Of a DNA stretch of 7,855 bases, positions 1 through 7,546 are shown in pieces. Below the pieces are notes generated by a model. It had not been told where the DNA came from. It made no database searches and worked only from the letters and a program-made list of their open reading frames with translations. The stretch lies in the IMG/VR virus record IMGVR_UViG_648276668_000013. One strand, written 5' to 3'. Position 1 is the stretch's first letter. Each line of letters starts with the position of its first letter. The stretch comes from a virus (taxonomy: Duplodnaviria; Heunggongvirae; Uroviricota; Caudoviricetes). The translations under genes were made by a program, and so were the position numbers.

Positions 1-567
1 ATGCTTATTGGCTATGTACGCGTGTCAACAAATGACCAGAACACCGATTTGCAACGTAATGCACTGAACTGCGCGGGATGTGAGCGGATTTTTGAGGACA
101 AAATCAGTGGCACTAAGTCCGACAGACCGGGGCTTAAAAAACTGCTCAGGACACTATCGGCAGGAGACACGCTGGTTGTCTGGAAGCTGGACAGGTTGGG
201 GCGCAGTATGCGGCATCTTGTTACGCTGATAGAAGAGTTGCGCCAGCGCGGCGTGAATTTCCGAAGCCTGACTGACAGTATTGATACCAGTACCCCAATG
301 GGCCGTTTCTTTTTTCATGTCATGGGTGCCCTGGCTGAAATGGAACGCGAACTGATAGTTGAACGTACCAGGGCAGGGCTGGCTGCAGCTCGTGCTAAAG
401 GCAGAGTAGGTGGACGCCGTCCTAAGTTGACTACCGAACAGTGGGCACAGATTGGGCGTTTACTCGAGGCCGGAGAATCAAGACAGCGTATTGCACTGAT
501 TTTTGATGTAGGCGTTTCTACCATTTATAGAAAATTTCCGGCAAATAAGAGCAATGAATCTCCCTGA
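1..567 (+). CDS. Serine-recombinase DNA invertase, Gin/Pin/Hin/Cin family (188 aa); the window begins exactly at its ATG
   Basis: N-terminus MLIGYVRVSTNDQNTDLQRNAL carries the catalytic-serine motif and the whole protein is near-collinear with Mu Gin and e14 Pin as recalled (GDTLVVWKLDRLGRSM, DTSTPMGRFFFHVMGALAEMERELI, C-terminal helix-turn-helix around GVSTIYRKF). Length is typical for this family. Confidence 0.9.
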   Translation: MLIGYVRVSTNDQNTDLQRNALNCAGCERIFEDKISGTKSDRPGLKKLLRTLSAGDTLVVWKLDRLGRSMRHLVTLIEELRQRGVNFRSLTDSIDTSTPMGRFFFHVMGALAEMERELIVERTRAGLAAARAKGRVGGRRPKLTTEQWAQIGRLLEAGESRQRIALIFDVGVSTIYRKFPANKSNESP

Positions 568-709: not shown

Positions 710-1881
710 ATGGCTCAGGATTACCACCACGGAGTGCGCGTTGTTGAAGTCAACGAAGGCACTCGATCCATTACCACGGTGAGCACCGCCATCGTGGGTA
801 TGGTCTGCACGGGCGATGATGCCGATGCAAAAATGTTTCCTCTTAATAAACCCGTGCTGATCACTGATGTGCTGACTGCCAGCGGTAAAGCGGGTGAGTC
901 TGGTACTCTGGCCCGTTCGTTGGATGCCATCGCTGACCAGGCAAAACCCGTGACCGTTGTTGTGCGTGTGCCGCAGGGTGAAACGGAAGAAGAAACCACG
1001 ACCAATATCATCGGCGCAGTGACTGCTGAAGGTAAAAAACAGGCATGAAAGCTCTGTTATCTGCCCAGTCACAGCTCGGCGTTAAACCGCGCATTCTCGG
1101 CGTGCCTGGCCACGATAACAAAGCCGTTGCGACTGAGTTGCTGAGCGTGGCGCAAAGCCTGCGTGGGTTTGCTTACCTGTCAGCGTATGGCTGCAAGACA
1201 GTGCAGGAGGCGATCACTTACCGCGAAAACTTCAGCCAGCGCGAAGGGATGCTGATCTGGCCTGACTTTACTGGCTGGGACACGGTGCTGAATGCCGAAG
1301 CAACGGCATATGCCACCGCCCGTGCGCTCGGTCTGCGCGCCAAAATTGATGAGCAGACTGGATGGCACAAAAGCCTGTCCAACGTGGGCGTGAACGGTGT
1401 CACCGGAATTTCTGCTGATGTGTTCTGGGATCTGCAGGACCCGGCAACCGATGCAGGTCTGCTGAACCAGAACGACGTCACCACGCTTGTGCGCAAGGAT
1501 GGTTTTCGCTTCTGGGGTTCCCGCTGTCTGAGCGATGATCCGCTCTTTGCCTTCGAAAACTTCACCCGCACGGCGCAGGTGCTGACGGACACGATGGCAG
1601 AAGCGCACATGTGGGCGGTGGACAAACCGCTGAACCCGTCGCTGGCGCGCGACATTATCGAAGGTATCCGCGCCAAAATGCGCAGCCTGGTCAGTCAGGG
1701 CTATCTCATTGGTGGTGATTGCTGGCTGGACGAGTCGGTGAACGATAAAGACACGCTGAAAGCCGGGAAGCTCACCATCGACTACGACTACACGCCAGTG
1801 CCGCCACTTGAAAACCTGATGCTGCGTCAGCGCATCACCGATCAGTACCTGGTGAATTTCTCCAGCCAGGTCAGCGCGTAA
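710..1881 (+). pseudogene. FI: Phage contractile tail sheath protein (P2 FI homolog), interrupted by a frameshift; ORF fragments 710..1048 (112 aa) and 1045..1881 (278 aa)
   Basis: Both fragments are collinear with P2 FI as recalled: N-terminal [16 protein letters not shown]...[11 protein letters not shown]-terminal [11 protein letters not shown]...[22 protein letters not shown]. The combined length (about 390 aa) matches an intact sheath. The reading frame breaks in the A6 run at 1034-1039; one additional A would give the contiguous junction [17 protein letters not shown] ribosome-binding site at 695-700, 9 nt before the ATG at 710. Confidence 0.85.
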
Positions 1882-1890
1882 GGGGACAAT

Positions 1891-2406
1891 ATGGCTTTAC
1901 CACGCAAATTAAAACACCTGAACCTGTTTAACGACGGGAACAACTGGCAGGGGATCGTTGAGTCGCTGACGCTGCCGAAATTCACCCGCAAATATGAGAA
2001 GTATCGCGGCGGCGGTATGCCGGGGGCGGTGGATGTGGATTTGGGACTGGATGACAGTGCACTGGATACAGAATTTTCCATTGGTGGTACTGAGCTGCTG
2101 CTGTTTAAGCAGATGGGCAAAGCCACGGTGGATGGCATCCAGCTGCGCTTTACCGGCTCTATCCAGCGTGACGATACCGGGGAAGTGCAGGCTGTGGAGC
2201 TTGTGGTGCGTGGACGTCACAAAGAAGTGGATTCCGGCGAGTGGAAGACGGGCGAAAGCAACACCACCAAAGTGACCAGTACCAACAGCTACGCGAAGCT
2301 GACCATCAATGGTGAGGTGCTCTATGAAGTGGACCTTATCAACATGGTGGAAATTGTGGACGGTGTGGACCTGATGGAAGCGCACCGCAACGCCCTCGGC
2401 CTCTGA
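1891..2406 (+). CDS. FII: Phage tail tube protein (P2 FII homolog), 171 aa
   Basis: MALPRKLKHLNLFNDGNNWQG...KYEKYRGGGMPGAVDVD...RDDTGEVQAVE...RNALGL is collinear with P2 FII as recalled. AGGGGA ribosome-binding site at 1881-1886. It lies immediately downstream of the sheath gene, the conserved sheath-tube order. Confidence 0.92.
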   Translation: MALPRKLKHLNLFNDGNNWQGIVESLTLPKFTRKYEKYRGGGMPGAVDVDLGLDDSALDTEFSIGGTELLLFKQMGKATVDGIQLRFTGSIQRDDTGEVQAVELVVRGRHKEVDSGEWKTGESNTTKVTSTNSYAKLTINGEVLYEVDLINMVEIVDGVDLMEAHRNALGL

Positions 2407-2460: not shown

Positions 2461-2763
2461 ATGAGCGATAAGCAGACTGAAAAGACCATTCAACTGGATA
2501 CCCCTATCAAGCGCGGTAAAACGGAAATCACCGAAATTGTGCTGCGTAAGCCGCAGTCCGGTGCGCTGCGCGGCACGCGCCTGCAGGCCATTATGGATAT
2601 GGATGTGAACGCGATGATGACCGTGATCCCCCGCATTTCCAGTCCGGTACTGACTGCACAGGAAATCGCAGAGATGGACCCGGCAGATCTCACCGCTATG
2701 TCGGTTGAGGTTGTCACTTTTTTGTTGAAGAAGTCGGTGCTTGCCGGTTTACCGACAGCCTGA
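2461..2763 (+). CDS. E: Tail assembly chaperone gpE (P2 E homolog), 100 aa; zero-frame product
   Basis: Small ORF between the tube and tape measure genes, the conserved position of the tail chaperone. It contains the slippery heptamer TTTTTTG near its 3' end, as in P2 E. Call rests on size, position and motif rather than strong recalled sequence identity. Confidence 0.8.
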   Translation: MSDKQTEKTIQLDTPIKRGKTEITEIVLRKPQSGALRGTRLQAIMDMDVNAMMTVIPRISSPVLTAQEIAEMDPADLTAMSVEVVTFLLKKSVLAGLPTA

Positions 2764-2897
2764 CGGTTGACGATCTGGTGGCAGACATCGCCACCATTTT
2801 TCACTGGCCGCCATCCGTTACTGACGTTATGCCGCTGACCGAAGTGCTGGAATGGCGGTATAAAGCGATTCAGAGAAGCGGGGCCAACGATGAGTGA
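2461..2897 (+). CDS. E+E': gpE+E' tail assembly chaperone fusion made by -1 programmed ribosomal frameshift at 2718-2724 (predicted about 145 aa); absent from the six-frame ORF track
   Basis: T TTT TTG sits in the E frame (codons TTT 2719-2721, TTG 2722-2724). After a -1 slip the frame stays open from 2724 to the TGA at 2895-2897, reading VEEVGACRFTDSLTVDDLVADIATIFHWPPSVTDVMPLTEVLEWRYKAIQRSGANDE, and ends just inside the start of T (ATG 2890). This copies the P2 E/E+E' arrangement. Confidence 0.65.
2718..2724 (+). other. -1 programmed ribosomal frameshift slippery heptamer T TTT TTG
   Basis: Direct reading of the sequence; X XXY YYZ-type heptamer in the gpE zero frame, with an open -1 frame downstream to 2897. 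Confidence 0.65.
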
Positions 2898-5800
2898 TAA
2901 CAACCTGCGGCTGCAGGTCATTCTTAATGCGGTTGACAAACTCACCCGCCCATTCCGTGTTGCACAGGCCAGTTCGAAAGAGCTGGCTGGCGCAATCAGA
3001 AACTCCCGTGACGCATTAAAGCAACTCAATCAGGCGGGTAATAGCCTGGAAAAATTTCGCAAGCTGCAGGCTGATAACAAGAAGTTAGGCGACAGGCTGA
3101 ACTATGCCAGACAGAAGGCTAATTTGCTTAGCTCTGAGCTGGAGGCGATGGAACAACCATCACAACGGCACCTTGTGGCTTTAGGTCGGCAAACGCTGGC
3201 AGTCCAACGCCTGGAAGAACAGCAAAAATATTTGCAGAAGCAAACGGCGCTTGTGCGTGCAGAACTGTACCGGGCGGGAATTTCTGCGAAAGATGATGCG
3301 GGAGCAACTGCCCGTTTAGCCCGTGAAACATCACGTTATAACCAGGAACTGTCGAAACAGGAGGCGCGGCTGAAGCGACTGGGGGAAGCTCAGCGCAGGA
3401 TGAATGCAGCGCGTGCCAGTTATGCCCGTTCGCTGGAGGTGCGCGATCGCATCGCAGGAGCCGGAGCAACCACCACGGCTGCAGGGCTGGCAGTGGGTGC
3501 ACCAGTAATGGCGGCGGTAAAAAGCTATACCAGCATGGAAGATGCCATGAAAGGTGTGGCAAAGCAGGTCAATGGTCTGCGTGACGATAATGGCAACCGC
3601 ACTGCACGTTTTTATGAAATGCAGGATGCCATCAAGGCTGCCAGCGAACAGTTGCCGATGGAAAACGGTGCGGTGGATTTCGCTGCACTGGTTGAAGGTG
3701 GTGCGCGCATGAACGTCGCAAACCCTGACGACAGCTGGGAAGACCAGAAACGTGACCTGCTGGCCTTCGCCAGTACGGCAGCAAAGGCGGCAACAGCCTT
3801 TGAGCTGCCAGCGGATGAACTGTCAGAAAGTCTGGGGAAAATCGCCCAGCTCTACAAAATCCCTACCCGCAATATTGAACAGCTCGGCGATGCGCTGAAC
3901 TATCTGGATGATAACGCCATGTCGAAAGGGGCAGACATCATTGATGTCATGCAACGCCTGGGCGGTGTGGCTGATCGTCTGGATTATCGTAAAGCGGCGG
4001 CTCTGGGTTCCACCTTCCTGACATTGGGCGCTGCGCCAGAGGTTGCAGCCAGTGCAGCAAACGCGATGGTGCGTGAATTGTCCATTGCCACCATGCAAAG
4101 CAAGAGTTTCTTTGAAGGGATGAATCTGCTGAAACTCAATCCTGAAGTGATTGAAAAGCAGATGACGAAGGATGCGATGGGAACCATCCAGCGCGTGCTG
4201 GAGAAGGTGAACGCACTGCCGCAGGACAAGCGTCTGTCTGCCATGACCATGTTGTTTGGTAAAGAGTTTGGTGATGACGCGGCGAAACTGGCAAACAACC
4301 TGCCGGAACTGCAGCGCCAGCTAAAACTGACAGCGGGCAATGATGCGCTCGGTTCCATGCAGAAAGAATCCGACATCAACAAAGACTCACTTTCTGCTCA
4401 GTGGTTGCTGGTCAAAACCGGAGCGCAGAACACCTTCAGCAGCCTGGGCGAAACGCTGCGCCAGCCGCTGATGGATATTCTGTACACGGTGAAAAGCATC
4501 ACGGGGGCGTTGCGCCGCTGGGTGGAAGCTAACCCGGAACTGACAGGCACACTGATGAAAGTAGCGGCTGTTGTGGCTGCGGTTACCGTAGGCCTCGGCA
4601 CCTTAGCGGTGGCGCTGGCTGCAGTTCTGGGGCCGCTGGCAGTGATCCGTCTGGGATTCTCTGTGCTGGGTATCAAAACGTTACCTTCCGTTACGGCAGC
4701 AGTAACTCGAACCAGCAGCGCGTTGTCCTGGCTGGCTGGCGCACCACTGGCACTGCTGCGACGCGGGCTTGCTTCATCGGGCAACGCCGCAGGTTTACTT
4801 ACTGCGCCGTTGTCGTCTTTGCGCCGCACGGCATCACTGACGGGAAATGTCCTGAAAACTGTAGCAGGTGCGCCGGTTGCACTTTTGCGGTCTGGATTAT
4901 CCGGTTTACGTGCTGTTGCTGTGATGTTTATGAATCCTCTGGCGGTACTGCGCGGTGGACTGGCCGCCGCAGGCACGGTGCTGCGAGTACTGGCATCTGG
5001 TCCACTGGCGATGCTGCGCGTTGCCCTGTATGCCGTATCTGGTCTGTTAGGTGCTCTGCTCAGTCCGATAGGTCTTGTGGTTACTGCACTGGCGGGCGTG
5101 GCGCTGGTTGTGTGGAAATACTGGCAACCCATCACCGCATTTCTTGGTGGCGTGGTGGAAGGATTCAAAGCGGCGGCAGGTCCCGTCAGTGCAGCATTCG
5201 AACCGCTTAAGCCCGTGTTCCAGTGGATTGGCGACAAAGTACAGGCGCTGTGGGGCTGGTTTACTGATCTGCTGACGCCCGTTAAGTCGACCTCTGCCGA
5301 ACTGCAGAGTGCAGCGGCAATGGGGCGGAGATTCGGGGAGGCACTGGCGGAAGGGCTGAATATGGTCATGCATCCGCTGGACTCACTGAAATCCGGCGTT
5401 TCCTGGTTGCTGGAGAAGCTCGGCATTGTCAGTAAAGAGGCCGCAAAGGCAAAACTGCCGGAAAGCGTGACGCGTCAGCAACCTGCGACGGTGAATGCAG
5501 ACGGTAAAGTGATGATGCCATCGGGTGATTTTCCGTCATGGGGATATGGCTTTGCGGGGATGTATGACAGCGGCGGCTATATCCCGCGTGGGCAGTTTGG
5601 CATCGTCGGTGAAAACGGGCCGGAAATTGTTAACGGCCCGGCAAACGTGACCAGCCGGAGAAATACAGCTGCACTGGCTGCCGTTGTCGCCGGAATGATG
5701 GGTGTTGCTGCCGCGCCAGCAGAGCTTCCACCGTTGCATCCTTTGGCGCTTCCCGCGAAAGGCGGTGAAGCAATTGTGAGTCGCGCAGCCACTGTGCCGC

Positions 5801-5967
5801 CTGTTTACCGGATTGAAGCACCGATGCAGATCATCATCCAGACACAGCCAGGACAAAGTGCGCAGGATATTGCGCGGGAGGTGGCCCGCCAGCTTGATGA
5901 ACGTGAACGCAGGCTGAAGGCAAAAGCCAGGAGTAACTACAGCGATCAGGGGGGATACGACGCATGA
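2890..5967 (+). CDS. T: Tail tape measure protein (P2 T homolog), 1025 aa
   Basis: Largest ORF in the operon, directly after the E/E' frameshift cassette. N-terminal region is coiled-coil-like and rich in Q/E/K/R/L/A. Central hydrophobic block carries repeated G-P-L-A-x-L-R-x-G-L units (about 4620-5040). Position and architecture are typical of Myoviridae tape measure proteins. Confidence 0.9.
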   Translation: MSDNNLRLQVILNAVDKLTRPFRVAQASSKELAGAIRNSRDALKQLNQAGNSLEKFRKLQADNKKLGDRLNYARQKANLLSSELEAMEQPSQRHLVALGRQTLAVQRLEEQQKYLQKQTALVRAELYRAGISAKDDAGATARLARETSRYNQELSKQEARLKRLGEAQRRMNAARASYARSLEVRDRIAGAGATTTAAGLAVGAPVMAAVKSYTSMEDAMKGVAKQVNGLRDDNGNRTARFYEMQDAIKAASEQLPMENGAVDFAALVEGGARMNVANPDDSWEDQKRDLLAFASTAAKAATAFELPADELSESLGKIAQLYKIPTRNIEQLGDALNYLDDNAMSKGADIIDVMQRLGGVADRLDYRKAAALGSTFLTLGAAPEVAASAANAMVRELSIATMQSKSFFEGMNLLKLNPEVIEKQMTKDAMGTIQRVLEKVNALPQDKRLSAMTMLFGKEFGDDAAKLANNLPELQRQLKLTAGNDALGSMQKESDINKDSLSAQWLLVKTGAQNTFSSLGETLRQPLMDILYTVKSITGALRRWVEANPELTGTLMKVAAVVAAVTVGLGTLAVALAAVLGPLAVIRLGFSVLGIKTLPSVTAAVTRTSSALSWLAGAPLALLRRGLASSGNAAGLLTAPLSSLRRTASLTGNVLKTVAGAPVALLRSGLSGLRAVAVMFMNPLAVLRGGLAAAGTVLRVLASGPLAMLRVALYAVSGLLGALLSPIGLVVTALAGVALVVWKYWQPITAFLGGVVEGFKAAAGPVSAAFEPLKPVFQWIGDKVQALWGWFTDLLTPVKSTSAELQSAAAMGRRFGEALAEGLNMVMHPLDSLKSGVSWLLEKLGIVSKEAAKAKLPESVTRQQPATVNADGKVMMPSGDFPSWGYGFAGMYDSGGYIPRGQFGIVGENGPEIVNGPANVTSRRNTAALAAVVAGMMGVAAAPAELPPLHPLALPAKGGEAIVSRAATVPPVYRIEAPMQIIIQTQPGQSAQDIAREVARQLDERERRLKAKARSNYSDQGGYDA

Positions 5968-6449
5968 TGATGGTGCTGGGATTTTACGTGTTTATGCTGC
6001 GCACCGTGCCGTATCAGGAGCTGCAGTATCAACGCAGCTGGCGACATGCGGCAAACAGCCGGGTAAACCGACGTCCGTCCACGCAGTTTCTGGGACCGGA
6101 CAACGACATGCTGACGCTTTCTGGTGTTCTTATGCCGGAGATAACAGGTGGCAGGCTGTCGTTGCTGGCACTGGAGCAGATGGCAGAACAGGGGAAAGCA
6201 TGGCCCCTGATTGAAGGCAGCGGCACCATTTACGGCATGTATGTGATTGAGGGAATAAATCAGACTAAAACGGAGTTTTTCCGCGATGGTATGCCGCGCC
6301 GGATTGAGTTCACCCTGTCGCTCAAACGGGTGGATGAATCCCTGTCCGATATGTTCGGTGATCTCAGTACGCAACTGAATAATCTGCAGGATACGGCAAC
6401 GTCTGCCTTAAGCGATATCGGTAAAACGGTGGGAGGGCTGCTGTCGTGA
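5964..6449 (+). CDS. U: Tail protein gpU (P2 U homolog), 161 aa
   Basis: MMMVLGFYVFMLRTVPYQ...WPLIEGSGTIYGMYVI...FTLSLKRVDESL is collinear with P2 gpU as recalled. GGGGGGA ribosome-binding site at 5948-5954. Its start overlaps the T stop (ATGA at 5964-5967). Confidence 0.88.
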   Translation: MMMVLGFYVFMLRTVPYQELQYQRSWRHAANSRVNRRPSTQFLGPDNDMLTLSGVLMPEITGGRLSLLALEQMAEQGKAWPLIEGSGTIYGMYVIEGINQTKTEFFRDGMPRRIEFTLSLKRVDESLSDMFGDLSTQLNNLQDTATSALSDIGKTVGGLLS

Positions 6450-7546
6450 ATTTCAGCTCTGAACTGCTTAACAAAGGCAACAAAACTCCGGCATTCAGCA
6501 TCAGTATTGAGGGCAGGGATATCACCACTGTGCTGGATAACCGCCTGATGAGTCTGACGCTGACGGACAATCGGGGCTTTGAAGCGGACCAGCTTGATCT
6601 GGAACTGGATGATGCCGACGGAAAAATCGTGCTGCCGCGCCGAGGTGCGGTCATTACGCTGGCGCTAGGCTGGAAGGGGCAGCCGCTTTTCCCGAAAGGG
6701 ACATTCACGGTGGACGAGATTGAACACACTGGCGCACCGGACCGCCTGACTATCCGGGCGCGAAGTGCTGATTTTCGTGAAACGCTGAATACCCGCCGTG
6801 AAAAGTCGTGGCACAAGACCACTGTCGGGGAAGTGGTCAAGGAAATAGCCGCGCGTCACAAGCTGAAGATGGCACTGGGTAAAGACCTGTCGGATAAGCC
6901 CGTGGAACATATAGACCAGACTAATGAGAGTGACGGCAGTTTTCTGATGCGGCTGGCGCGCCAGTACGGTGCTATTGCGTCAGTGAAAAATGGCAATCTG
7001 TTATTCATCCGGCAGGGACAGGGTAAAAGCGCCAGCGGTAAACCACTGCCGGTGATCACTATCACACGTAAGGACGGCGACAGTCACCGCTTTACCCTGG
7101 CAGATCGCGGAGCCTATACGGGCGTAATTGCCAGCTGGTTGCATACCCGCGAACCCGCGAAGAAAGAAAGCACCACGGTGAAGCGTAAGCGCAGAACTAA
7201 GAAGCAGAAGAAAGAACCGGAAGCGAAGCAGGGCGATTACCTGGTGGGGACGGATGAAAACGTGCTGGTACTTAATCGCACTTATGCCAACCGGAGCAAC
7301 GCCGAACGAGCGGCGAAAATGCAGTGGGAACGCCTGCAACGCGGTGTTGCGTCATTCTCGCTACAACTGGCGGAAGGGCGGGCAGATCTCTACACGGAAA
7401 TGCCAGTGAAAGTCAGTGGCTTTAAGCAGCCGATAGATGATGCGGAATGGACCATTACGACTCTGACGCATACCGTCAGCCCGGATAACGGTTTTACGAC
7501 CAGTCTGGAGCTTGAAGTGAGGATTGATGATTTCGAAATGGAATGA
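6446..7546 (+). CDS. D: Tail protein gpD (P2 D homolog, late control gene D family), 366 aa; GTG start
   Basis: Conserved position after U with a length typical of the gpD family. GGGAGGG ribosome-binding site at 6431-6437, 8 nt before the GTG at 6446, which overlaps the U stop (GTGA). Identity rests mainly on synteny and size. Confidence 0.88.
   Translation: MNFSSELLNKGNKTPAFSISIEGRDITTVLDNRLMSLTLTDNRGFEADQLDLELDDADGKIVLPRRGAVITLALGWKGQPLFPKGTFTVDEIEHTGAPDRLTIRARSADFRETLNTRREKSWHKTTVGEVVKEIAARHKLKMALGKDLSDKPVEHIDQTNESDGSFLMRLARQYGAIASVKNGNLLFIRQGQGKSASGKPLPVITITRKDGDSHRFTLADRGAYTGVIASWLHTREPAKKESTTVKRKRRTKKQKKEPEAKQGDYLVGTDENVLVLNRTYANRSNAERAAKMQWERLQRGVASFSLQLAEGRADLYTEMPVKVSGFKQPIDDAEWTITTLTHTVSPDNGFTTSLELEVRIDDFEME

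What the first reader, a model, noticed from the sequence alone, without database searches (positions are those of the whole stretch)
2716..2897. Unannotated E+E' product from a -1 programmed frameshift at TTTTTTG
The six-frame track shows only the 100-aa gpE ORF. The sequence contains T TTT TTG in the gpE frame at 2718-2724 followed by a 57-codon open -1 frame ending at TGA 2895-2897, overlapping the tape measure start. This is the conserved chaperone frameshift upstream of tape measure genes (P2 E/E+E', lambda G/GT), and both products are normally required for tail assembly. A stop-to-stop ORF caller misses it.
Basis: partly seen in the sequence, partly recalled or inferred. Interest (0 to 1): 0.5.

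Follow-up and report, generated by a model that had tools for sequence, protein, structure and literature searches.

The report
P2-type tail chaperone E/E+E' frameshift

Summary
T TTT TTG lies in the gpE frame at 2718-2724. The -1 frame then stays open for 57 codons to TGA 2895-2897, which overlaps the tape-measure ATG at 2890. The predicted fusion is 145 aa.

The -1 extension is a real coding region:
- It matches Pfam PF06528 (Phage_P2_GpE) over the full model, E=5e-19.
- The fusion aligns without gaps to P2 E+E' (49% identity, E=2e-51).
- Third-codon-position variation switches from frame 0 to frame -1 after the E stop.
- All 44 relatives from distinct species, and all 117 complete IMG/VR loci found through the E' motif alone, keep an in-phase TTTTTTN with an open -1 frame ending at the T start.

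P2's RefSeq record annotates this join, and the Fels-2 and 186 records mention it. Pipelines usually call E' as a separate 39-aa "GpE family" CDS. The finding is therefore already known and of low interest.

Two side observations:
- A Shine-Dalgarno-like RAGGTG/GAGG motif sits just upstream of the heptamer in 87% of family members. Synonymous sites are biased towards keeping it, so it may stimulate what is an intrinsically weak heptamer.
- The sheath gene in this window is broken by a 1-nt deletion in an A7 run.

The parts
2461..2763 (+). Gene E (zero-frame product, 100 aa): tail assembly chaperone
   Evidence: The ORF is. PF10109 Phage_TAC_7 scores 67.5 bits against a cut-off of 25. The exact protein is already in public collections as 'phage tail assembly protein [E. 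coli]' on at least 1000 contigs.
2707..2710 (+). [quoted passage not shown] This is a possible 5' stimulator (inferred, not shown).
   Evidence: An SD-like motif sits at this position in 117 of 135 distinct family members, against 11.6% at control positions. Synonymous sites are biased at codons -4 and -3. The motif and spacing definitions come from PMC4066793.
2718..2724 (+). Slippery heptamer T TTT TTG in the E frame
   Evidence: The six T's are invariant in 33 distinct in-register relatives. Across 134 distinct sequences the heptamer is TTTTTTG in 120, TTTTTTA in 8 and TTTTTTC in 6. P2 has the same heptamer next to its annotated frameshift site.
2724..2897 (+). E' : -1 frame extension, 57 codons plus TGA. 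It is translated only as the C-terminal part of the 145-aa E+E' fusion (2461-2724 joined to 2724-2897).
   Evidence: PF06528 Phage_P2_GpE at E=5e-19 and phrog_1756 at E=2e-23. Codon-position periodicity switches to this frame after 2763, with 281 synonymous against 162 non-synonymous differences in frame -1, compared with 63/402 and 37/425 in the other two frames.
2778..2897 (+). The 39-aa stand-alone CDS that annotation pipelines call from GTG 2778 ('GpE family phage tail protein'). This is an annotation convention and probably not a separate product.
   Evidence: The equivalent CDS is present in RefSeq E. coli L001. The exact 39-aa sequence is in the collection on about 994 contigs, while the 145-aa fusion is absent. 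101 of 112 sequences have no SD-like tetramer upstream, and the -1 frame is conserved upstream of this codon.
2890..5967 (+). Gene T (tape measure, 1025 aa). Its ATG lies 5 nt before the E' stop.
   Evidence: PF10145. An ATG lies 1-8 nt upstream of the E' stop in 79 of 83 distinct contexts.
1891..2406 (+). Gene FII (tail tube), the upstream neighbour that fixes the gene order
   Evidence: PF04985, E=8.8e-60.

Best explanation
Window 2461-2897 encodes the P2-family tail assembly chaperone pair.

Most ribosomes translate E (100 aa) and stop at 2761-2763. A minority slip back one base on T TTT TTG (2718-2724) while the TTT and TTG codons occupy the P and A sites. They then read GTT GAA GAA... in the -1 frame for 57 codons and stop at TGA 2895-2897, just inside the tape-measure gene. 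The product is the 145-aa E+E'.

By analogy with P2 E/E+E' and lambda G/GT, the shared E part should bind the tape-measure protein. The E' part should recruit the tube protein so that the tube polymerises around the tape measure. Neither protein should end up in the virion.

What is shown here: the signal, the second coding frame, and their conservation. What is inferred: the slip itself, its rate and the binding partners. A conserved SD-like GAGG/RAGGTG just upstream may raise the rate of what is otherwise a weak heptamer; this is a hypothesis.
For: - Exact anatomy of the site.
- Pfam PF10109 on the E part and PF06528 on the -1 part, both far above their cut-offs; PHROG tail families.
- 49% identity to P2 E+E' over 139 aa with no gaps, E=2e-51.
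- The P2 record carries a two-piece E+E' CDS and a frameshift-site feature next to the same heptamer, with both products labelled essential. The Fels-2, 186 and Midge records say the same.
- tblastn of the fusion finds both halves as two pieces at one place in 374 of 425 phage records.
- 44 of 44 relatives keep an in-frame TTTTTT[G/A] and a 57-64 codon -1 ORF.
- Of 120 IMG/VR loci seeded only on the E' motif, 3 were truncated at a contig end. All 117 others have an in-phase TTTTTTN in the upstream ORF.
- Codon periodicity and the synonymous/non-synonymous ratio switch from frame 0 to frame -1.
- The E' frame upstream of the pipeline's internal start is conserved (L.VDDL at 81-95%) and stop-free in 112 of 112 sequences.
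- The E' stop overlaps the T start in 79 of 83 contexts.
- Literature: PMC3091744 and PMC3931495 summarise Christie et al. 2002 and Xu et al. 2004. PMC5009743 describes the lambda G/GT mechanism and its 30:1 ratio.
Against: - There are no expression data for this window.
- U_UUU_UUG gave only 0.118% -1 frameshifting in an E. coli reporter without stimulators, and 0.25-0.77% with IS911 or IS3 stimulators (PMC4066793 Table S3). The rate here is therefore unknown and could be very low.
- No downstream stimulatory structure is supported. Fold z-scores range from -2.0 to +0.6. The only nearby consensus stem is 4 bp, invariant in the Fels-2 group and broken in P2 and 186.
- The sheath gene of this copy is interrupted. 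The operon may not yield tails in this host, unless the interruption is a sequencing error.
- I could not read the primary P2 paper.
Confidence: 0.92

Rival explanations
1. E' is made on its own as a 39-aa protein starting at GTG 2778, as annotation pipelines list it, and no frameshift is needed.
For: PGAP annotates exactly this CDS in relatives, and the 39-aa sequence is deposited on about 994 contigs. The codon at this position can act as a start in 102 of 112 distinct sequences (ATG 72, GTG 30), and every Val codon there is GTG.
Against: - 101 of 112 sequences have no SD-like tetramer within -18 to -4 of that codon, and 10 of 112 have ATC or ATT there.
- The 18 codons between the heptamer and that codon are stop-free in all sequences and conserved as protein (G 88%, L.VDDL 81-95%).
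- phrog_1756 aligns from fusion residue 85, at the slip site, not from residue 107.
- The literature states that P2 E' lacks a ribosome-binding site (PMC3931495).
Confidence: 0.03
2. The fusion arises from transcriptional slippage. RNA polymerase adds one extra U in the U6 run, and standard translation of that mRNA gives E+E'.
For: The site is a homopolymer run. Ribosomal slippage on U_UUU_UUG is weak in reporters (0.118%), so a small transcriptional contribution cannot be excluded from sequence alone.
Against: - Efficient bacterial slippage is described for runs of about 9 A or T (PMC5009743). This run has 6.
- A position-specific SD-like motif with synonymous-site bias upstream makes sense for a ribosome-level mechanism but not for RNA polymerase.
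- The P2 literature calls the event translational.
Confidence: 0.04
3. The signal is intact, but in this particular prophage copy it has no consequence, because the tail operon is already defective (broken sheath gene).
For: The sheath gene is split into 710-1048 and 1045-1881 by loss of one A from an A7 run (A6 at 1034-1039). The close relative L001 has a single 390-aa CDS. In the complete E. coli genomes that carry this segment (955), the best matches are 99.1% identical and span 112 nt for the 111-nt query, as expected for A7.
Against: A single-base change in homopolymer length is also the commonest kind of sequencing error. E, E', T, U and D are all intact, and E and E' are identical to widely distributed alleles.
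Confidence: 0.1

Closest known systems
Bacteriophage P2 gpE / gpE+E' (NC_001895, genes P2p26 and P2p25; Christie et al. 2002, cited through PMC3091744 and PMC3931495)
   Same: Same heptamer TTTTTTG in the same phase. Same 57-codon -1 extension. The E' stop overlaps the T start. Same FI-FII-E-T-U-D gene order. 49% identity over the whole fusion with no gaps.
   Different: E is 100 aa here against 91 aa in P2, because the zero-frame stop lies 43 nt after the start of the heptamer rather than 25 nt. The E/E' overlap is therefore longer (13 codons). The upstream motif is GAGGTT here and AAGGTGG in P2.
Fels-2 STM2699/STM2697.1 and Elveevirus/Felsduovirus relatives (Cartapus, 500465-1, Klebsiella 4LV2017, SEN8, RE2010)
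   Same: 85-97% nucleotide identity across 2400-2950. Identical architecture and lengths (E 100 aa, fusion 145 aa). The Fels-2 record says the pair 'forms functional gpE+E' if translational slippage occurs'.
   Different: Only a few substitutions. This lineage is where the window belongs.
Phage 186 gene H (orf51/orf52)
   Same: TTTTTTG and a 57-codon extension. The record says orf52 is 'probably produced by a translational frameshift'.
   Different: It has a longer N-terminus (E 111 aa). Identity is about 43%.
Lambda G / GT tail assembly chaperones
   Same: It works the same way. The gene lies between the major tail gene and the tape-measure gene, and a -1 slip near its 3' end gives a minor longer product. 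The ratio matters for assembly, and neither product is in the virion (PMC5009743).
   Different: No detectable sequence relationship: Pfam reports only PF10109 and PF06528. The heptamer differs (G GGA AAG in lambda, listed under gpG in PMC4066793 Table S4). Lambda has a non-contractile tail.
E. coli dnaX and IS911/IS3 -1 frameshift signals (5' Shine-Dalgarno stimulator)
   Same: An SD-like sequence of an experimentally stimulatory type (GAGG, AGGKG) sits within the 6-17 nt range upstream of the heptamer.
   Different: No supported downstream hairpin. The spacing is at the short end of the range; PMC5009743 gives 9-14 nt for -1. No stimulation has been measured here.

Membership tests
P2 gpE / gpE+E' tail assembly chaperone pair | The zero-frame product belongs to the E-type chaperone family (PF10109 Phage_TAC_7). 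| tested here: met
   67.5 bits against a cut-off of 25, residues 9-88, model 1-78 of 79.
P2 gpE / gpE+E' tail assembly chaperone pair | The -1 frame extension belongs to PF06528 (Phage_P2_GpE, the E' segment). | tested here: met
   67.9 bits against a cut-off of 23, E=5e-19, model 1-37 of 37. phrog_1756 and phrog_6416 also match.
P2 gpE / gpE+E' tail assembly chaperone pair | T TTT TTG heptamer in the E frame near the 3' end of E. | tested here: met
   2718-2724, 43 nt before the E stop. The same heptamer is in P2.
P2 gpE / gpE+E' tail assembly chaperone pair | E' has no ribosome-binding site of its own, and its stop overlaps the start of the tape-measure gene. | tested here: met
   There is no SD-like tetramer upstream of GTG 2778. 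ATG 2890 and TGA 2895-2897 overlap. The overlap holds in 79 of 83 contexts.
P2 gpE / gpE+E' tail assembly chaperone pair | Gene order is sheath, tube, E/E', T, U, D. | tested here: met
   Pfam assignments for all neighbours. The same order is annotated in P2, Fels-2 and E. coli relatives.
P2 gpE / gpE+E' tail assembly chaperone pair | The fusion protein is actually produced, and both products are required for tail assembly. | not testable with these tools
   This rests only on the P2 record's notes ('essential tail protein') and second-hand literature.
Lambda G/GT-type chaperone (as a homologous family) | Sequence similarity to lambda gpG/gpT. | tested here: not met
   The Pfam scan returns only PF10109 and PF06528. 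The relationship is functional and positional analogy, not demonstrated homology.
Lambda G/GT-type chaperone (as a mechanism) | A gene between the major tail/tube gene and the tape-measure gene, with a -1 slippery site near its 3' end and an extension that ends at the tape-measure gene. | tested here: met
   The mechanism is described in PMC5009743.
SD-stimulated -1 frameshift signals (dnaX, IS911 type) | [quoted passage not shown] | tested here: met
   The window has GAGG at distance 9. 117 of 135 family members have such a motif, against 11.6% at control positions. The definition is from PMC4066793.
SD-stimulated -1 frameshift signals (dnaX, IS911 type) | A conserved downstream hairpin or pseudoknot 5-9 nt after the heptamer. 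| tested here: inconclusive
   The window folds at z=-1.0 to -2.0, P2 at +0.64 and 186 at -0.97. The consensus shows only an invariant 4-bp stem with no covariation, broken in P2 and 186. PMC3091744 also reports no hairpins.
SD-stimulated -1 frameshift signals (dnaX, IS911 type) | Mutating the SD-like sequence lowers the frameshift rate. | not testable with these tools
   This needs a reporter assay.

The most novel reading that the evidence does not exclude
The P2-family chaperone frameshift may not be a 'heptamer-only' signal. A conserved Shine-Dalgarno-like RAGGTG/GAGG about 6-9 nt upstream could pair with the 16S rRNA tail of the elongating ribosome. That would raise slippage on an intrinsically weak U_UUU_UUG to the level tail assembly needs. 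This would be a dnaX/IS911-style 5' stimulator in a phage tail chaperone gene. I found no mention of it in the literature I could read.
Probability: 0.3. Interest if true: 0.3.

Novelty: already known. Interest (0 to 1): 0.1.

Why it matters
For biology it matters little, because the E/E+E' frameshift is a textbook feature of P2-like phages and this copy is a standard example.

It has practical value for annotation. Pipelines split the product into E and a truncated 39-aa 'GpE family' CDS. The true 145-aa fusion of this widespread E. coli prophage allele is absent from a 15-billion-protein collection. Proteomics searches and structure or interaction predictions will therefore miss it unless the join is added.

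The side observation could explain how a heptamer that gives about 0.1% slippage in reporters serves an essential assembly function. A position-specific SD-like motif is maintained at synonymous sites. This is cheap to test.

Tried and rejected
1. Downstream stimulatory RNA structure. Single-sequence folds and a 17-sequence consensus gave no significant or covarying structure near the heptamer. Rfam found nothing in the whole window at E<=1.

2. The hairpin at 2776-2796 followed by T5 looks like a terminator, but such hits are no more frequent than in shuffles (3 found against 1.8 expected). It lies 54 nt past the heptamer in a strongly conserved peptide segment. I did not pursue it.

3. Antisense ORF 2490-3029 (179 aa). 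It is interrupted by extra stops in close relatives such as Cartapus and Fels-2, and in many others. I rejected it as a gene.

4. A second slippery site, G GGG GGA at 5949-5955, whose -1 frame is gene U. Relatives have GGAGG, AGGGGG or GAGGG there, so it is U's ribosome-binding site and not a conserved heptamer. Rejected.

I did not predict E alone because it would not change the verdict.

6. A profile-based search of viral contigs with a diverse E alignment failed for lack of a conserved stretch. I replaced it with a degenerate DNA pattern on the E' motif.

7. The primary P2 paper (PMC135442) is not held in the library.

8. NCBIfam has no model matching E, E' or the fusion. No solved structure matches by sequence.

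Full report
**What the window is.** The 7,855-base window is the tail-gene operon of a P2/Fels-2-like prophage (Peduoviridae). The ORF list and Pfam scan give these genes:
- a serine invertase, 1-567
- a tail sheath gene split in two, 710-1048 and 1045-1881
- tube FII, 1891-2406 (PF04985)
- gene E, 2461-2763 (PF10109, tail assembly chaperone family)
- tape measure T, 2890-5967 (PF10145)
- U, 5964-6449 (PF06995)
- D, 6446-7546 (PF05954)
- the start of an ogr-like zinc-finger gene

About 953 complete E. coli genomes carry 80% or more of this segment, the best at 97.6% identity. RefSeq annotates the same gene order there.

**Checking the observation.**
- In the E frame the codons read GTC ACT TTT TTG TTG AAG, so T2718-TTT-TTG2724 is an in-phase X XXY YYZ heptamer.
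- Re-reading from G2724 gives 57 codons and TGA at 2895-2897.
- The fusion is 145 aa.
- T's ATG at 2890 lies inside the last E' codons (ATGAGTGA).
- The -1 frame is closed by a TGA at 2706-2708, so it opens only at the slip site.

Chance alone does not settle the matter. 11% of codon positions in the window's genes are followed by 57 or more open -1 codons, and the eight ORFs hold six in-phase heptamers, although only two T6 runs exist in the whole window. Homology and conservation settle it.

**The -1 frame is a conserved coding region reached only through E.**
- The -1 translation matches Pfam PF06528 'Phage P2 GpE' over the whole model (67.9 bits, cut-off 23, E=5e-19). It also matches PHROG tail families, one of which aligns from fusion residue 85, that is, from the slip site.
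- The 145-aa fusion aligns to P2 E+E' over 139 residues without a gap (49% identity, E=2e-51).
- tblastn of the fusion against 50,697 phage records finds 425 records. In 374 of them both halves lie at one place as two pieces, as expected for two frames. Hosts include Escherichia, Klebsiella, Salmonella, Yersinia, Burkholderia, Ralstonia, Pseudomonas and Vibrio.
- In 44 relatives (38 loci from species-representative genomes, one RefSeq E. coli chromosome, and P2, 186, Fels-2, Cartapus and Midge), every one has an in-frame TTTTTT[G/A] and a 57-64 codon -1 ORF. The E' peptides are strongly conserved (DDLVADIATIFHWPPS...LTEVLEWR.KA..RSG).
- In 33 distinct in-register sequences the position of greatest variability is the third base of frame 0 upstream of the heptamer. 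After the E stop it is the third base of frame -1. Between 2764 and 2889, codon differences from the window are 281 synonymous to 162 non-synonymous in frame -1, against 63/402 and 37/425 in the other two frames.
- As an independent test I seeded a search on the E' motif alone (D-I-A-x-I-F-H-W-P-P back-translated), which returned 120 IMG/VR loci. Three are truncated at a contig end. All the rest carry an in-phase TTTTTTN in an upstream ORF. Two of these sit too near a contig end to show the full E ORF. A few that my script first labelled TTTCCCG proved to carry the T6 run once the scan was limited to TTTTTTN.
- Across 134 distinct sequences the heptamer is TTTTTTG in 120, TTTTTTA in 8 and TTTTTTC in 6. 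Extensions are 54-74 codons long.
- In 79 of 83 distinct contexts an ATG lies 1-8 nt before the E' stop, so E' ends at the start of T.

**It is already described.** It also has a 'site of -1 translational frameshift' feature one base after the same TTTTTTG. The Fels-2 record notes that its two CDSs form gpE+E' by slippage. The 186 record says orf52 is probably made by a frameshift from orf51. Phage Midge annotates the join. PMC3091744 and PMC3931495 summarise Christie et al. 2002 and Xu et al. 2004: a -1 shift at TTTTTTG, E 91 aa and E+E' 142 aa, E' without a ribosome-binding site, and conservation among P2-like phages. I could not read the primary paper.

'Unannotated' holds in one sense. PGAP and most depositors list the distal part as a separate 39-aa 'GpE family phage tail protein'. 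The window's exact E and that 39-aa peptide are in the 15-billion-protein collection on roughly 1000 contigs each. The 145-aa fusion is not there.

**How it most likely works.**
- Shown here: the heptamer, its phase, the second coding frame, and their conservation.
- Inferred from the P2 and lambda literature: a minority of ribosomes slip -1 with TTT and TTG in the P and A sites and go on to make E+E'. The common E part binds the tape measure, and the E' part recruits tube subunits. Neither is a virion component. In lambda the G:GT ratio is about 30:1 and matters for assembly (PMC5009743).
- The junction residue is not established. Tandem slippage predicts ...TFLVEE....
- The rate is unknown. 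In an E. coli reporter, U_UUU_UUG gave only 0.118% without stimulators, 0.247% with the IS911 stimulators and 0.765% with the IS3 pseudoknot (PMC4066793 Table S3).
- I found no support for a downstream structure, in agreement with PMC3091744.

**A possible upstream stimulator.** The sequence just 5' of the heptamer is GAGGTTGTCAC in the window, and most often AAGGTGATCGG in the family.
- Codon -4 is Lys or Glu in 129 of the 134 sequences and ends in G in 123 of those 129. Only 38% of all other Lys/Glu codons in the same genes end in G.
- Codon -3 is GTG in 100 of 125 Val cases, against 44% elsewhere.
- The bias survives clustering at 70% nucleotide identity (16 clusters): 13 of 14 against 43%, Fisher p=4e-4; and 11 of 13 against 36%, p=0.0016.
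[quoted passage not shown] By that definition 117 of 135 distinct family members (87%) have one at the slip site, against 11.6% at control in-phase positions of the same genes. The window has GAGG at distance 9.
- The spacing is short compared with the 9-14 nt quoted for -1 shifts in PMC5009743, and the residues encoded (K/E-V) are themselves conserved.

This remains a hypothesis. A ribosome-level stimulator would also argue against the transcriptional-slippage alternative.

**Rivals.**
- Independent initiation of E' at GTG 2778 is unlikely. 101 of 112 sequences have no SD-like tetramer upstream, and 10 of 112 have ATC or ATT at that codon. The 18 upstream -1 codons are stop-free and conserved as protein.
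- Transcriptional slippage on a 6-nt run cannot be excluded from sequence. It is expected to be minor, since efficient slippage is described for runs of about 9. It predicts a different junction (TFFVEE).
- The signal may be idle in this copy. The sheath gene is split by loss of one A from an A7 run. In the complete E. coli genomes that carry the segment (955), the best matches are 99.1% identical and span 112 nt for the 111-nt query, which points to A7. This could equally be a homopolymer sequencing error.

**Verdict.** The feature is the known P2-family E/E+E' programmed frameshift in a Fels-2/Elveevirus-like E. coli prophage. It is already known and of low interest. Its practical value is as an annotation correction. 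The upstream SD-like motif is a small open question.

Noticed in passing
window 1034-1039 (sheath gene, ORFs 710-1048 and 1045-1881): The tail sheath gene is split into 112-aa and 278-aa ORFs by a 1-nt deletion in a homopolymer. The window has GGT-A6-CAGG where relatives have A7 and a single 390-aa CDS. The stop of the first ORF overlaps the ATG of the second (ATGA). In the complete E. coli genomes that carry this segment (955), the best matches are 99.1% identical and span 112 nt for the 111-nt query. It is either a private inactivating mutation or a homopolymer sequencing error.
   Followed up: partly
window 2706-2711 (GAGGTT), and the same position in loci L001-L166: A Shine-Dalgarno-like RAGGTG/GAGG sits just upstream of the slippery heptamer. 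It is present in 87% of 135 distinct family members against 11.6% at control positions. Synonymous sites are strongly biased: Lys/Glu codon -4 ends in G in 95% of cases against 38% elsewhere, and Val codon -3 is GTG in 80% against 44%. It may be a 5' stimulator of a heptamer that gives only about 0.1% slippage in reporters.
   Followed up: partly
window 5949-5955: An in-frame G GGG GGA heptamer lies 18 nt before the stop of T, and its -1 frame is gene U, so a slip would fuse T to U. Relatives have GGAGG, AGGGGG or GAGGG at this spot, so it is U's ribosome-binding site and not a conserved slippery site.
   Followed up: yes
window 2776-2796 (+ strand): A 7-bp G+C-rich hairpin (TGGTGGC-AGACATC-GCCACCA) followed by TTTTT lies inside the E' coding region, between E and T, and looks like a terminator. 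Such hits are no more frequent than in shuffles. The stem is invariant in the Fels-2 group and poorly formed in P2. The Val codon within it is always GTG (30 of 30), which is also the codon pipelines use as the E' start.
   Followed up: partly
window 2490-3029 (- strand): A 179-aa antisense ORF spans E, E' and the start of T. Extra stops interrupt it in close relatives (Cartapus, Fels-2) and in many others, so it is not a gene.
   Followed up: yes
window 2778-2897 and public protein collections: Annotation pipelines list E' as a stand-alone 39-aa 'GpE family phage tail protein'. That exact sequence is on about 994 contigs. The 145-aa E+E' fusion of this allele is absent from the 15-billion-protein collection.
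   Followed up: yes
window 1-567; L001 1-473: A serine recombinase/invertase (Resolvase plus HTH_7) sits immediately upstream of the sheath gene. In the E. coli relative it is next to an oppositely oriented tail-fibre gene, which suggests a Gin/Cin-like invertible tail-fibre (host-range) switch in this prophage.
   Followed up: no
window 2725-2763 (overlap of the E tail and E'): In the 13-codon stretch read in both frames, overall variability is depressed. The differences that do occur are mostly synonymous for E (45 synonymous to 38 non-synonymous) and almost all non-synonymous for E' (5 to 62). The C-terminal tail of E therefore seems more constrained than the E' linker.
   Followed up: partly
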